A DNA stretch of 64,000 nucleotides, taken from positions 7,936,001 through 8,000,000 of the forward strand of contig JASGJH010000001.1 in assembly GCA_047601445.1 (NCBI GenBank), read 5' to 3'. Source of the stretch: Myxococcales bacterium. Lineage in GTDB: Bacteria > Myxococcota_A > Polyangia > Polyangiales > DASUME01. Made by a program: the position numbers. Positions 49,901 through 55,900 of the stretch are shown here, in pieces; positions within the stretch are counted from its first letter, which is position 1, and each line of letters opens with the position of its first letter.

Positions 49901-52900
49901 CGCTCGGGCCCTTCTGGGGCTGCGCGGCCGTGACGGGCACCTTGAAGCGCTCCGGTGCGTCCTCTTCCTGGACGCCAGCAACGGCGCCCGCGCCCTCGGC
50001 CTGTTCGGCACTCACGTCGGCGATTTCGCCGCCGCCCTTATTCGCCGTCACTTGACCGAGTACAAACCCGATCACCGCGGCGATGATAGTCATCACGATG
50101 GCTGATCCCTTACTCATATTCTCTCCTCAGGCCACGGCCTAAGCCGTGGCGCTCTGAAACCACAGTTCGATGTCGAAATGGCGAATTGTCGGGGCCGGTT
50201 GAGCCTCGGACCTCAGCTCTCCGCAGCGGGGCAGGCCGGCGGCGGACGGAGGGCGGATCGCAGCTGCGATCGCAACCTCACGGGCGAGTTCCGAAGACGC
50301 ACGAGTCGACGCGCTGACATGCGCGCGACGCAGCGACCGGCTTCAGGCGCGGGGTGGGCGCTCGAGGCGTGTCGGGTCGAGCGAGCGCGGGCGATCGACG
50401 GGGGCGGGGCGCTGCCAACTGGGCAGCGTCCAGGCGAGCCGCTCGGGCATGGGGAGCGCGAGGCTCCACAGCGCGAGCGGGGCGGTGTCCCCGAGTTCGA
50501 TATGGCCCGACGCAGGAAGCGCCGGCAGGCAAAGGGGTGAGCTGGGATCGGCACACCACAGGAGCTCAGCGCCGCTGAGGGGACCCTCGTCGCGGGCACA
50601 GCTCATCAGGGTGGTCTGGCTGCGCTCGAGGTCCCGCAGACTCAACGGGGTGGAGCCTTCACGCACGCCCGCGAAACCGAGGCACGCGATCACGGTCGTG
50701 AGGATCAGCGTTGCCCCCAGCAACGAGATCATCACGCTTGCAGGCGAGCTCGCCCACTTGGACCTGTTCGTGGAAGTAACCATCGAACTGTGCGGCATTC
50801 TACACCCGAGGTGCCCCGTAGCAACAATCCAGAAATGGACCGTCTGGCACCCAACGCTCGATTCGGCCGCCCTATTCCGAACGGCCGATCAGCTTCACGG
50901 GGCGCTGCGCGAGCCAGTGCGCGCTTCCGGGCGGCTCACGCCGTCGGGGAAGCCCGTCACCACGCGATGCAGTAACTCGGCCAGGGAGGAGAACTCGGGC
51001 AACCGCGCGAGCGCGCGGCCCACGTAGCGCAGACTCGGGGCGAACCAGGGCAAAAAGCTCGGGTTTCCACGGACTTGATCGATGAACACGAAGCGCCCGG
51101 CGTCCTTGAGCTTGCGCTGCACGGCTACCAGCCAGAAGGCCCGCTCCAAATCCGCCACGGACTCCCCGCGCAAACCCGCCGCATAGGCGACCAGCTCGCG
51201 CTGCTCCGCCTCGCTGAGGTCCACGTACGAGTCGCACAGGAGCGCCACCAGGTCGTACACGGCGGGCCCCATCAGGGCGTCCTGGAAGTCGATTACCACC
51301 AGACCTGGCTTGGCCTTGCGCCGCGACGCCCACATGAGATTTCGGGACTGGAAGTCGCGATGCACGAACCCTTGCGGTAGGCCGAGGATGGCCTCCACCA
51401 ACGTGTCCGCCGAGCCCGCGAAGAGCTCCCGATCTCCGGTCGAGAGCGCCAGCCCCTGGGCATCGAGACCCCATTCCAGGAAGTGCTCGAGCTCCCAGCG
51501 CAACAGCGTGCGATCGAAGCTGCGCCCGTAGGCGATGCACTCCGCGTTCTTGGCGGCGGCCTGCCGGTGCATTTGCACCATCAGCTCGATGGCGTGCCGG
51601 TAGTGCGTGAGCCACTGCTCGCGGCCCGAGCCCAGCAAGCGCGCCTCGAAGGTCTCGTCGCCGAGATCCTCCAGCAGCACCACTCCGCGCTCCAGATCGC
51701 TTACCAGCACCTCCGGTACCGCGATGCCGAGCGCGCGCAGGTGACGCTGCACGTTGAGGAACGGGAGCTCGGTGGGTTTGGCCGCACCGCTCAGTTCGTC
51801 GCTCTTGAGCGCGTCGGCCGGCAGGCGCATCACGATCAGGGAGGGCGGCGCCGCGGTGGCACTCGTCACGCGATAGTAGCTACGCGTGGAGGCGTCACCC
51901 TTCAGCTTGAGTACGTCGAGATCACGCGGAACCTCGCCCCACACGGCGTGAAGCGAGGGTTCCAGATCCATGCCGTCGAATTGTCCCGTGGACGCGGGCA
52001 TCAGCGCTCGTCGTATCCGCGGTCGTCGTCGCGGTCGCGGGCGTCGGGCTCGTCCCGGCCACGACTCCAGTCGTCTGCCACTGGGCGCTCGCGGCTGCGG
52101 TCGTCGGTGCTGCTGCGCTCACGGCCGCGGTCGTCCGCGCTGCCACGGCTGCGGTCATCGGCGCTGCTGCGCTGCTCCCGACGATTGTCGAAGGAGCGCT
52201 CGCGGCTGGGTCCGCGGTCGTCGGTGCGCTCGCGGCTGGGTCCGCGGTCGTCGGTACGCTCACGGCTGGGTCCGCGGTCGTCGGTACGCTCGCGACTGGG
52301 TCCGCGGTCGTCCGTGCGTTCACGCGGACGATCGTCGCTCGGCCCGCGTCGCTCGTCGCTGCGCTCGCGGCTAGGTCCACGGCGCTCGCCACGACCGCCA
52401 CCGCCACCGCCACCGCTACGCGGACGGTCGTCCCGGCTGCGCTCGCTGCTGCGCTCGGTGCGTTCGCTGCCGCGCTCGCCACGCACGGGGATGATCTGCA
52501 GACGCCGTTCGGCGCCCTCGCCCTCGGAGCGCGTGCTCACGCCCGGGAACTTGGCCAGCGATACGTGGATGACGCGCCGATCGCGCGCCGACATGGGCTC
52601 CAGGGTCACCGCGCGTCCAGAGGACACGGCGCGCTTGGCCTCACGCTTGGCCATCGACACCAGGCTGTTGTCGTGACGTTCACGGTAGTCACCCGAGTCG
52701 AGCACGATGTGACGGCGCTCGTCCGGGTCGCGATTGACGATCTTGTTCACGAGGAACTGCAGCGCCTCGAGGGTCATGCCCTTCTTGCCGATGGCACGCC
52801 CTGCGTCCGGCCCCTCGATGTCGACCACCACGCGCTCGTCGTCCTCCTCGCGCACGCGAGCGGAGGCTTCGAGATCCATGCGATCGAGGATGCCCTGGGT

Positions 52901-55900
52901 CACTCGGCGGGCGTCATCGGCCTTGCCGTCATCCACGTTGCGGGAGCGTCTCTTCTCGCGATCGTCACCACGACCCTGACGATCCTCATCGACGAACAGC
53001 GCCCCATCCATGTTGTGTCTACGCTCGTCCACGTCCGGTCCTCCGAGGGGACGCCGCATTGTCTGGGGCGCCCGATGGCGAGTTCGAAAGGCCACTTTCG
53101 CCGCCCCCTGTGGGCGGGTGACTGTTGGCGATCCGATACTCGATAAACTTTTGTTGCCCGATGCTGAGCACCGAGTTGGTGAACATGTAAAGGCAAAGAC
53201 CCGCGGGCAAAAAGAGCATGAAGCTCGTGATCATCGCGGGCATCACGTAGAGCATCATCTTGGCCTGCGCGGCGTCCATGGTGCTCGGCGTGATCTTCTG
53301 CTGAACCCACATCAAGAGCCCGAGTGCCAACGGCAGCACGTAAAAGGGATCGGGCGCGGTAAGGTCTTGCCAGAAGCCGAAGAAGGGGCGTCGGAACAGC
53401 TCCACGTTAGTGGAAAGCGACATGTACAGGGCCCACCAGATGGGCAGCTGCAAGAGCTGCGGCAAGCAACCCCCGAACGGGTTGATCTTGTGCTTCTTGT
53501 AGAGCTCCATCATCGCCACGCCCTTCTTCTCGCGGTCGTCCTTGTACCGCTCGTTGAGGGCGTCGATCTCCGGGCTTGAGGCGGCGCATGGCCGCGATGG
53601 ACTGGAAGCTCTTGGCCGTGAGCGGGTAGAGCACCAGCTTCACGAAAAAGGTCAGAAGGATGATGGCGACGCCCCAGTTGGGCACCCACTGGTGGATGAA
53701 CGCCAGCATGGCCAGGAGGCCGTTGGCGATGGAGTCCACGCCCGGCAGGCCGCCCACGAAGGAGGCGCGCCGCAGGCTGTGGCCGGCTGCGGCCAAGGTC
53801 TCGGGGAGCTTGGGGCCCACGTAGGCGAGGGTCCGGAACAGGTTCTGCGAGTTGGGCAGCGCCTTGACCGTGGGGTAGCGCAAGGAGACCGTGAGCAAGG
53901 AGCCCTCCGGTTCGTCCTCGGAGCCACCGCGGTCGGAGCCCGACAGCGCACAGCGATTGAAGGTCTTGGCGTTCCCCGCGTAGGCCTGCGTGAAGTAGAT
54001 GGTGTCGACGGACCCGAAGTTCACCGCGCCCTCGAGCACGGGCTTGTCTTCGACCACGTCCGCGCGCTCGAAGCGCTTGGGCGTGTCGTCTTCCACGCAG
54101 AGACCACTGGCCGTCAGCGGCGAGCGTCCGGCCATGAAGCCGCCCTTCTCGTCCTGGCGTCGCACGTAGTGGTAGCCCTCGATGGAGACCTCGAGTGGGC
54201 GCTCGGTCTTGCCGCGGTTGATCACGTTGAGCGTCGACCACAGCTGGAACGGACCCTGACCGACCTCGATCTTGCGGACGATGAGCAGGTCGCCGGCCAC
54301 ATAGGTGAAGCGGGCGGCCTGGGGGCTCAGCTGCTCCACGCTCCACACGGCGTTCGGGGGCAGGTTGACTCCTGCGATGACGACGCGGAACGGGAGATAG
54401 GCAGGGCGATCGGTGGTGACGAGATCGATGGGCTTGCCGTTGGCCGCCGTGAAGCGCTTTTCACGCAGGCGGAAGTGCTCGATGGCGCCGCCGTTGTTCG
54501 AGAGCACCGCCTCGAAGTCCGGGCTCTCGAGCCTGACGTGCCGCATATCGCCGATGTCGAACGAGAGCTGGGGGGGCGCAGGCGTGGAACGTTCACGGTC
54601 CGCCTGGGGGCTCTCCTTCGCGGCCGGGCTCGTGCTCGCAGGTTCCCGGCTCAAGGCGAAGGCCGACGCGGCGAACGCACTCAAGAGGAGGACGCAGGTG
54701 AAGAAGAGGCGCGGTCTCTGAGTTGGCATCACGACTCCGAACGAGGTCTGCCCGGGGACCAAGCGTGGGCTTCAGCGGGCGACACGAACTTGGGGGGCGG
54801 GGGGTCGAATCCCCCTGGGTGAAACGGGTGGCAGCGGGCGATTCGCTTGGCGCCCAACCATGAACCACGGGCCGCGCCGTGCATTTCAATGCACTGGGCG
54901 GTGTAGCGTGAACAGCTCGGCTCGAAGCGGCAGCCGCGTCCAAGCAGCGGCGACAGCAGCAGCTGGTAGATGCGGATCACGGCGAGCAAGAGGCGGGCGA
55001 TCATCGGGTACCGCCTCTCTTACCGCGCAGCACGCGCGCAGCATCGTCGAACTCTCGGACGACATCGGCCAGGCACGACACCGAGCAACCGTTCTTGGCG
55101 ATCACCACCAAGTCGGCCTGCTCCGGGAAGAGCTCGCGGTGCTGCCGGAACGTCTCCCTGATCAAGCGCTTGATGCGGTTGCGTCGCACGGCCTTGCCGA
55201 CCTGGCGGGCCACCGTGATCCCGAGACGCGCGCGCGGCACGCTAGCGGGCCCCACGAGCACGAGAAAGCTCCTGGTGTGGACGCGCCGCGCCCGGTCCCG
55301 AACAAGGCGGAACTCGAACCGCTTGCGCAAACGGTCGCTAGCCGGAAAACGCTGCGAACGCTCGGCAGCGGGGCCCAAGGCACCCGAAGCCAAGGGGAGC
55401 CCGCTTACTTCTTGTAGACCGAGACGCCCAGGCGCTGACGCCCCTTGCGGCGGCGGTTGTTGATCACCTTGCGGCCGTTGGCGGTCTTCATACGGGCGCG
55501 GAAGCCGTGGGTACGAATGCGACGGGTGCGGTGCGGTTGATAAGTGCGCTTCACGGGGATCCTCCAGCAGACGCTCCCAGGCGGGCTGCGCTCTGCGAGT
55601 GCTCAACCCGAGGCCCAGGGGCGCTCGAGTGAAACTTGTGGCCCGAGCAGAGCCGCTGGCTCCAGCTAGGGCGCGGGAAGGTTGCATGGGCATACCCAGC
55701 TGTCAAGAACGGCCTGGACGTTAGAAACGCCACGGTTTGGTGAGCCGTTTGTCGGGCCTCATGGCTTTCGATAGAGACCTGAATCCAAGCAACTAAAGTA
55801 CCCCTCCTGGCTGACGATGACATGGTCGAGCAGGAAAATTCCCAGCAGCTCTCCCACCTGAGCCAAACGCTGTGTGAATCCAAGGTCTTCGCTGCTCGGC

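What a model noticed while it worked through the whole genome (the two positions that open the first line are those of the whole stretch)
50895..55554. No MnmE/MnmG wobble-uridine pathway in this genome or any sampled Polyangiales
The closed 9.3-Mb chromosome encodes neither MnmE (TrmE) nor MnmG (GidA), so xm5U34 cannot be made by the standard route, although MnmA and U34 tRNAs for Lys, Glu, Gln, Leu, Arg and Gly are present. The loss is order-wide; the rpmH-rnpA-yidD-yidC-jag locus given here ends without the mnmE that usually follows.
Evidence so far: No MnmE_helical/TrmE_N/GIDA_C rows; own-genome TIGR00450 hits are only Der/Era/HflX-type GTPases. TIGR00136 over cut-off in 0 of 61 Polyangiales (cross-hits are TrmFO-sized), 9 of 14 controls. 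MnmE_helical in 0 of 14 Polyangiales but 40 of 57 other phylum genomes. Locus order call 74.
(Added by a program. Inside this text positions count along the whole contig: contig position 7,936,001 is position 1 of the stretch shown here. "Call 12" and the like, gene names such as g00115 and contig names such as C1 are that model's own, and its searches are not shown. The text may have been shortened before it was handed on; [...] marks where a part breaks off. The agent that wrote the report below was given it as the finding of a first reader that could run no searches.)

Follow-up and report, generated by a model that had tools for sequence, protein, structure and literature searches.

The report
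Myxobacterial order lacks standard wobble-uridine enzymes
A whole order of myxobacteria has lost the two enzymes that most bacteria use to modify the wobble uridine of tRNA; some members carry the archaeal/eukaryotic-type enzyme pair instead, while this genome has neither and probably gets by with a simpler sulfur-only modification.

Summary
Confirmed and extended. G000 (9.50 Mb, one contig) has no mnmE or mnmG; the gidA cross-hit is TrmFO. Neither gene reaches cut-off in 201 order genomes, while the four same-class outgroups tested keep both, with mnmE after yidC or jag. Two further clades of the phylum lack them too. A 2018 survey reported the loss only in Actinobacteria.

An Elp3 with intact catalytic residues, usually beside a Trm9-like methyltransferase, occurs in 28 of 91 MnmG-negative and 0 of 110 MnmG-positive phylum genomes, and in 10 of 64 order genomes. 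G000 has neither route. It keeps MnmA (92 of 92 good order genomes) and all C34 tRNAs, so it most likely uses s2U34 or plain U34, as Streptomyces does. Its family nests among Elp3-bearing families, which suggests displacement followed by a second loss.

G000 also has an orphan MnmC2-like methylase behind a second tgt, which is unexplained. No nucleoside was measured. The scan noted Elp3+Trm9 pairs before, on other DNA.

The parts
55405..55554 (-). rpmH (ribosomal protein L34)
   Evidence: TIGR01030 76.9 bits, cut-off 37.65
55001..55350 (-). rnpA (RNase P protein); start approximate
   Evidence: TIGR00188 69.4 bits, cut-off 38.35, on residues 119-204 of the 55001-55693 frame
54729..55004 (-). 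yidD
   Evidence: TIGR00278 87 bits, cut-off 40
53019..54762 (-). yidC, read in two frames with a one-base frame break near 53,570; probably an assembly indel
   Evidence: YidC hits below cut-off; the YidC of congener G006 is one frame and matches 54462-53572 and 53573-53022 in different frames
52001..53011 (-). jag/khpB (KH and R3H domains with a C-terminal extension)
   Evidence: PF13083, PF01424; NF041568 133.7 bits, below its cut-off of 145
52001..52003 (-). jag stop / kinase start overlap: the place where mnmE lies in same-class outgroups; no remnant
   Evidence: junction sequence; outgroup synteny; tblastn of two MnmE proteins against 30 jag loci of the order gave no hit at E<0.1
50895..52001 (-). 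AmgK-like phosphotransferase that follows jag in place of mnmE
   Evidence: NF045759 122.7 bits, below its cut-off of 550; PF01636; lies near jag in 7 of 30 order loci

Best explanation
G000 makes no C5 side chain on wobble uridine. SHOWN: it lacks MnmE, MnmG, Elp3, the Trm9-like partner and MnmL/YhcC; it keeps MnmA behind a NifS-type desulfurase, a TrmL-like gene, and a C34 isoacceptor for every MnmEG target (Lys CUU, Glu CUC, Gln CUG, Arg CCU, Leu CAA, Gly CCC). INFERRED: tRNA-Lys/Glu/Gln carry s2U34, the other U34 tRNAs carry U or Um, and all of them need read only A-ending codons because C34 tRNAs read the G-ending ones. This is the state reported for Streptomyces. INFERRED HISTORY: the full C34 set is phylum-wide and older than the loss, which made MnmEG dispensable at least three times. 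In each of those three clades some members carry Elp3 with a Trm9-like methyltransferase, predicted to make mcm5U/mcm5s2U. In this order Elp3 is one vertically inherited clade, kept more often where A-ending codons are frequent. G000's family sits among Elp3-bearing families, so it probably lost Elp3 secondarily.
For: Absence; none of 27 radical SAM genes is Elp3 or MnmL. MnmA: (92 of 92). Salmonella lacking both s2 and (c)mnm5 is non-viable, which fits strict MnmA retention (PMC5400242, abstract). C34 set; the 1.82-Mb genome G066 also keeps all six; Lys/Glu/Gln C34 all present in 16 of 17 order genomes. A-ending share in G000: AAA 9%, GAA 22%, CAA 19%, TTA 0.3%, AGA 0.9%. Precedent: Streptomyces J1074 has no MnmEG, (c)mnm5s2U was not detected and s2Um was (PMC12772374, passages); M. 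tuberculosis has MnmA and no apparent C5 enzymes (PMC10531406, passages). Elp3 exclusion: 28 of 91 against 0 of 110. K77, K193, E386, G408, G410 38 of 38; Cys triad 37 of 38 (one truncated); Y441 Tyr in 27 and Trp in 11. Trm9-like gene beside elp3 in 33 of 38. Order Elp3s form one side of a 100/100 branch, with families grouped much as in the marker tree.
Against: No nucleoside was measured. G000 keeps an MnmC2-like methylase, whose known substrate nm5s2U comes from MnmEG; that could point to an unknown source of nm5U. High GC is not a sufficient reason: Elp3-less, MnmEG-less G066, G017 and G059 use A-ending Lys/Glu/Gln codons 60%, 52% and 47% of the time. C34 tRNAs are also present in MnmEG-positive relatives (15 of 20), so they permit the loss and do not mark it. 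The f16/f10/f17 branch of the order showed no Elp3 (0 of 18), so Elp3 at the root of the order is not shown. The marker tree is thin (355-2,276 columns per taxon; Elp3-bearing branch 87.7/87). The link between Elp3 and A-ending codons (median 0.41, n=10, against 0.20, n=24; p=0.036) ignores kinship and rests on short loci. I could not screen whole proteomes of relatives for an unknown replacement.
Confidence: 0.7

Rival explanations
1. An unrecognised enzyme supplies a C5 side chain in the members that lack both routes, G000 among them; the retained MnmC2-like methylase would finish nm5(s2)U to mnm5(s2)U, as in archaea that have mnm5s2U without MnmEG.
For: MnmC2-like gene in 34 of 201 order genomes at 49-66% identity; best PDB match is Aquifex MnmC2, E 3e-14; s2mnm5U was reported in archaea without gidA/mnmE (PMC1635325, passages); G000 has unassigned radical SAM genes (L055, L049, L059); none of the 10 Elp3-positive order genomes has the methylase, against 8 of 54 Elp3-negative ones tested (too few to mean much).
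Against: The methylase is missing from 167 of 201 order genomes with this query, scores under the MnmC2 cut-off (90.8 against 136), and follows a second tgt in 25 of 30 loci, which points to a Tgt product as substrate. No candidate enzyme recurs beside mnmA in 17 loci.
Confidence: 0.18
2. Same present state, different order of events: MnmEG was lost first with no replacement, and Elp3-Trm9 was gained later in one branch or several times, helped by the vacant function.
For: No Elp3 in the f16/f10/f17 branch, in f45/f36/f30 (0 of 4) or in most of f53 (1 of 7); 63 of 91 MnmG-negative genomes lack Elp3, so life without either route is common; Actinobacteria lost MnmEG with no known replacement.
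Against: Elp3 occurs in all three large MnmEG-less clades and follows their taxonomy, which suits an early gain in each; in the class of G223 it is in 23 of 37.
Confidence: 0.4
3. Artefact: the genes are present but missed through incomplete bins, frameshifts or extreme divergence.
For: Most genomes are metagenome bins; G000 has at least one indel (yidC) and 5.4% contamination.
Against: Six-frame searches read through stops; 0 of 201 against MnmA in 92 of 92; the same searches find both genes in the four same-class outgroups; single-contig members (G039, G045, G066, G123, G165) are negative; no remnant at 30 jag loci.
Confidence: 0.02

Closest known systems
Loss of MnmE/MnmG in Actinobacteria (Diwan and Agashe 2018, PMC6063277; Streptomyces J1074, PMC12772374; M. 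tuberculosis, PMC10531406)
   Same: No MnmE or MnmG, MnmA kept, C34 isoacceptors present; predicted s2U34 or s2Um34 end state.
   Different: An independent, repeated loss in a Gram-negative phylum; includes genomes of 47-53% GC that use A-ending codons heavily; overlaps with an Elp3-Trm9-like module. The 2018 main text says both genes are 'absent only in Actinobacteria' among 1,093 bacteria.
Elp3 (Elongator catalytic subunit; D. mccartyi 5L7J, M. infernus 6IAD) with Trm9/ALKBH8 (Yarrowia 5CM2), route to mcm5U34
   Same: In relatives of G000: radical SAM plus KAT domains, TIGR01211 over cut-off, active-site residues conserved, Trm9-like neighbour with the TRxxPWP motif, usually head to head.
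   Different: Absent from G000. In relatives it stands alone and would work with MnmA, not Ncs6/Urm1 (inferred); no zinc-site cysteines of the D. mccartyi enzyme in the one aligned; Trm112 not looked for. A 2020 review names only Dehalococcoides among bacteria and says direct evidence for xcm5U34 there is lacking (PMC7663514). Wider bacterial occurrence of Elp3 is recalled from Selvadurai 2014 (not read) and from earlier scan notes.
MnmC2/MnmD nm5s2U methyltransferase and TGT-MnmC2 fusions (Jaroch et al., 10.1101/2023.12.21.572861)
   Same: PF05430 domain; tied to a tgt gene; a fusion occurs in same-class G326, which has MnmEG.
   Different: Here it persists in genomes with no known source of nm5U, behind a second tgt paralog with changed RNA-side residues. 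The preprint lists the fusion among MnmAEG-positive genomes and, in the passages read, gives it no function.

Membership tests
MnmE/TrmE (TIGR00450) | Full-length match over cut-off with N-terminal, helical and G domains | tested here: not met
   Best 107 bits against 252.6, G domain only; PF12631 no match in G000 and 0 of 201 over cut-off
MnmG/GidA (TIGR00136) | About 620 aa, over cut-off | tested here: not met
   39 bits against 524.85; 0 of 201
TrmFO (TIGR00137) | About 450-aa GIDA-family protein over cut-off | tested here: met
   C1:379018-380364, 448 aa, 560.9 bits against 428.65
Actinobacteria-type s2U-only wobble state | MnmA present, MnmEG absent, no known alternative C5 enzyme | tested here: met
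   for G000
Actinobacteria-type s2U-only wobble state | C34 isoacceptors for all split-box G-ending codons | tested here: met
Actinobacteria-type s2U-only wobble state | No xm5U nucleoside in tRNA | not testable with these tools
   Needs LC-MS/MS
Elp3 (G000) | TIGR01211 over cut-off | tested here: not met
   29 bits from a B12 radical SAM protein; tblastn with three order Elp3s gives only that gene
Elp3 (relatives) | TIGR01211 over cut-off; Fe-S cysteines; K77, K193, E386, G408, G410, Y441 (D. mccartyi numbering from PMC7663514) | tested here: met
   Y441 is Trp in 11 of 38, none of them in the order
Elp3 (relatives) | cm5U34 formation on tRNA | not testable with these tools
   Needs an assay
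Trm9/ALKBH8 methyltransferase (relatives) | Class I methyltransferase closest to Trm9 among solved structures | tested here: inconclusive
   Best PDB hit 5cm2_Z at E 4.5e-8 with the TRxxPWP motif, but the next unrelated methyltransferase is at 1.8e-7; no NCBIfam family at E<=1e-12; linkage to elp3 in 33 of 38
Trm9/ALKBH8 methyltransferase (relatives) | Trm112 activator | not tested
   No search made
MnmC2/MnmD (G000 C1:4728193-4728987) | NF033855 over cut-off | tested here: not met
   90.8 bits against 136; PF05430 is met, 78 against 22
MnmC2/MnmD (G000 C1:4728193-4728987) | An upstream source of nm5(s2)U (MnmEG) | tested here: not met

The most novel reading that the evidence does not exclude
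Myxococcota hold a natural three-state series for one tRNA position: MnmEG (mnm5/cmnm5U), a stand-alone Elp3 plus Trm9-like pair (eukaryote/archaea-type mcm5U or mcm5s2U in a bacterium), and neither. The archaeal-type pair displaced MnmEG independently in three clades and was then shed in many lineages, G000 among them. The MnmC2-like methylase, left without its substrate, now works with a second Tgt to N-methylate the aminomethyl group of preQ1 in an RNA, a base I found no report of in tRNA (the like base in phage DNA is recalled).
Probability: 0.3. Interest if true: 0.82.

Novelty: new variant of a known kind. Interest (0 to 1): 0.63.

Why it matters
xm5U34 is described as universally conserved (PMC5400242) and its loss as confined to Actinobacteria (PMC6063277). 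Here are at least three more losses in one phylum, with sister groups that keep the genes. That allows a direct test of what the C5 group is needed for: G-ending codon reading, accuracy or frame keeping. The strict exclusion between MnmEG and Elp3 is genomic evidence that bacterial Elp3 is a real U34 enzyme, for which a 2020 review says direct evidence is lacking. Cultured members (Sorangium and Pendulispora appear) make the 'neither' state measurable by one LC-MS run. They are natural-product producers (recalled), so their decoding of A-ending codons bears on heterologous expression.

Tried and rejected
The 185-aa gene after mnmA (in 14 of 17 mnmA loci) as a replacement enzyme: rejected, it has a lipoprotein-type N-terminus and its Atlas look-alikes are unnamed Myxococcota proteins and a lipoprotein cluster. 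Other mnmA neighbours are nifS, rib genes, nrdR, a kinase and an RlmD-like methylase. The radical SAM gene beside tRNA-Gln(UUG) is MoaA. Neighbourhoods of rsmG, trmFO and five tRNA loci hold no candidate (80 of 103 called genes given). The best Trm9-profile hits in G000 are a UbiE-like and a trans-aconitate methyltransferase. High GC as the whole explanation: rejected. C34 tRNAs as a specific compensation: rejected, they are phylum-wide. Family f53 as Myxococcaceae: not supported, its MglA differs from the solved M. xanthus protein at about a fifth of positions, and M. xanthus is reported to have both TrmFO and GidA (PMC1635325). Motif scans of G000 for SelU, MnmM, CmoA/B, TrhO and QueF/C/H found nothing, but the motifs were recalled and also missed TilS, so they prove nothing. 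G012 was dropped from the final marker tree because it fell outside the order in the first tree and has two MnmA matches. Literature: ten searches listed no paper on MnmEG loss or Elp3 in myxobacteria; most subscription papers are not in the library. The supplements of PMC6063277 and of the Jaroch preprint were not seen, and their per-genome tables may already show single Polyangiales genomes as negative.
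Full report
1. Observation. The window is G000:C1:7936001-8000000 of a 9,502,601-bp single contig, 66.3% GC. On the minus strand lie rpmH, rnpA, yidD, yidC, jag and an AmgK-like kinase whose start overlaps the jag stop. yidC has a one-base frame break that congener G006 lacks, probably an assembly error. TIGR00450 finds only GTPase domains. TIGR00136 finds only TrmFO. Searches with 20 MnmG and two MnmE proteins from relatives find no remnant. MnmA lies behind a NifS-type gene.

2. Range of the loss. In an even sample of 201 order genomes (24 families; 152 of good quality) neither PF12631 nor TIGR00136 reaches cut-off. One of the 201, G122, is unpublished and enters only these tallies. MnmA is found in 116 of 121, and in 92 of 92 good genomes. 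The four same-class genomes outside the order have MnmG and MnmE (three over cut-off, one split over two contigs), with mnmE after jag (G326, G275) or yidC (G313, G296). At 30 jag loci of the order there is no mnmE remnant; an rsmG-like gene faces jag in 11 of the 30. In 201 phylum genomes, 107 pass the MnmG cut-off and three more have split strong matches; 91 are negative: 35 of this order, 37 of the class of G223, 12 of family f53, four of three small families, and three probable gaps. MnmE_helical agrees: 0 of 71 in the class of G223; 0 of 18 in f53 and 0 of 2 in f69, against 48 of 51 over cut-off in their class sisters. So there are at least three separate losses, if the database's classes are clades. 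The order name rests on titles of near relatives.

3. A replacement exists in part of the range. G000 has no Elp3, and none of its 27 radical SAM genes is Elp3 or MnmL. But TIGR01211 passed cut-off in 27 of 80 hand-picked MnmEG-less genomes. In the same phylum sample as it passed in 28 of 201, all 28 MnmG-negative: 28 of 91 against 0 of 110. Kin are not independent, but the pattern repeats in all three large clades (order 4 of 35, class of G223 23 of 37, f53 1 of 12). Over both searches 10 of 64 order genomes have it. In 38 sequences, the residues that a review lists for the D. mccartyi enzyme (PMC7663514, passages) are conserved: K77, K193, E386, G408 and G410 in 38 of 38, the Fe-S cysteines in 37 (one truncated), Y441 as Tyr in 27 and Trp in 11. 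Earlier scan notes on other genomes prompted a look for a Trm9-like neighbour. A 240-270-aa methyltransferase whose best PDB match is Trm9 (E 4.5e-8) lies beside elp3 in 33 of 38 loci, 6 of 10 in the order; G000's best match to its profile is 51 bits against 114-350. In yeast Trm9 turns cm5U into mcm5U (PMC5372719, passages).

4. History. The ten order Elp3s form one side of a 100/100 branch; f7 groups together and beside f4. A marker tree of 40 genomes (up to eight proteins, uneven coverage, G012 dropped) splits the order into f16/f10/f17 (93.5/97; no Elp3 in 18 tested) and a branch (87.7/87) in which Elp3 is scattered over six families; G000 groups with f22 and f14 inside it. Secondary loss of Elp3 in G000's line is the simplest reading. 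Whether Elp3 came before or after the loss of MnmEG is open.

5. How G000 decodes. It has U34 and C34 isoacceptors for all six MnmEG targets. A-ending codons are 9% of Lys, 22% of Glu, 19% of Gln, 0.3% (TTA) of Leu and 0.9% (AGA) of Arg in 7,443 genes called by my own script. The C34 tRNAs for Lys, Glu and Gln were all seen in 16 of 17 order genomes and 2 of 2 f53 genomes, but also in 15 of 20 MnmE- or MnmG-positive controls (50 genomes given, 150 of 188 rows shown and judged by eye; the six class-of-G223 genomes and five controls were not fully shown). The 1.82-Mb genome G066, with neither route and no TrmFO match, keeps all six. The set is therefore an old permissive condition. That xm5 mainly helps U34 read G-ending codons is established knowledge, echoed in a search listing (PMC2790889 abstract start). 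Strict retention of MnmA fits the non-viability of the Salmonella double mutant (PMC5400242, abstract). Streptomyces J1074 is the measured precedent (PMC12772374, passages); for M. tuberculosis the authors leave the chemistry open (PMC10531406, passages). Against a simple GC story, the A-ending share runs from 0 to 0.68 in the order; it is higher in Elp3 holders (median 0.41, n=10, against 0.20, n=24), yet G066, G017 and G059 have 0.47-0.60 without Elp3.

6. An unexplained remainder. G000 has an MnmC2-like gene (C1:4728193-4728987) straight after a second tgt (C1:4726962-4728137), 50% identical to the housekeeping tgt that follows queA. It is in 34 of 201 order genomes, after such a tgt in 25 of 30 loci, fused to Tgt in MnmEG-positive G326, and in named Sorangium and Pendulispora proteins. 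The second Tgt keeps the base-binding residues of the Z. mobilis enzyme but changes K52, R286 and R289; their role in binding the anticodon loop is recalled, and a search did not confirm it. MnmC(m) methylates nm5s2U (PMC3936742, passages), and TGT-MnmC2 fusions have been listed (Jaroch preprint, passages and section 5). preQ1 carries the same aminomethyl group, so N-methyl-preQ1 is my best guess (inference, about even odds against a relic or another substrate). At 17% occurrence it cannot be the order-wide replacement.

7. Comparison and verdict. The 2018 survey's main text says both genes are absent only in Actinobacteria (PMC6063277, passages; supplements not seen). A 2020 review knows bacterial Elp3 only from Dehalococcoides, without direct evidence of its product. 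My ten searches listed nothing on myxobacteria, with the limits stated. Each state has a precedent, and the scan has met Elp3-Trm9 pairs elsewhere. What is new is the repeated loss in this phylum, the strict exclusion of the two routes across sister groups, and a large set of genomes with neither. New variant of a known kind; interest 0.63.

Noticed in passing
G000 C1:3225557-3225641 (L082); congeners L297, L298, L304, L306, L310: tRNA-Leu(AAG) in place of tRNA-Leu(GAG): G000 has no Leu(GAG) although CTC is 40% of Leu codons, and 5 of 5 congeners searched have Leu(AAG). It implies that TadA (C1:4646532, beside tRNA-Arg(ACG)) makes I34 on tRNA-Leu, known to me only from some Firmicutes (recalled). 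G066 has Leu(GAG).
   Followed up: partly
G000 C1:4726962-4728987 (L161:8963-10988): Second tgt with altered RNA-side residues, translationally coupled in most relatives to an MnmC2-like methyltransferase; fused in G326 (L280).
   Followed up: partly
window 53,570 (yidC); L056 (hemW-like): One-base frame break in yidC that congener G006 lacks; the hemW-like gene was also not called whole by my script. Probably assembly indels.
   Followed up: partly
G000 C1:5772283 (dnaA), C1:7991405 (rpmH), C1:951520 (rsmG): The origin block is broken up: dnaA-dnaN-recF lie 2.2 Mb from rpmH-yidC-jag, whereas they are back to back in same-class outgroups.
   Followed up: no
G066 (L201, L202, L221-L262): A 1.82-Mb single-contig order member of about 47% GC with 44 tRNAs, every split-box C34 isoacceptor, MnmA, and no MnmE, MnmG, Elp3 or TrmFO match; about 57-60% of its Lys/Glu/Gln codons end in A.
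   Followed up: partly
L367, L369, L372 and other elp3 loci of the class of G223: The elp3/methyltransferase pair is often flanked by a SpoU-family methylase and by clpB.
   Followed up: no
G000 C1:2296073, C1:4597431, window about 23,000-23,800 (C1:7958984): Three RlmN-family radical SAM genes, one short (272 aa) inside this window.
   Followed up: no
G000 C1:5112786-5113706 (L055, L163): A 306-aa radical SAM protein with no family over cut-off, behind an M19 peptidase gene.
   Followed up: partly
G000 and G066 tRNA sets: Both carry tRNA-Arg(UCG) as well as Arg(ACG) and Arg(CCG).
   Followed up: no
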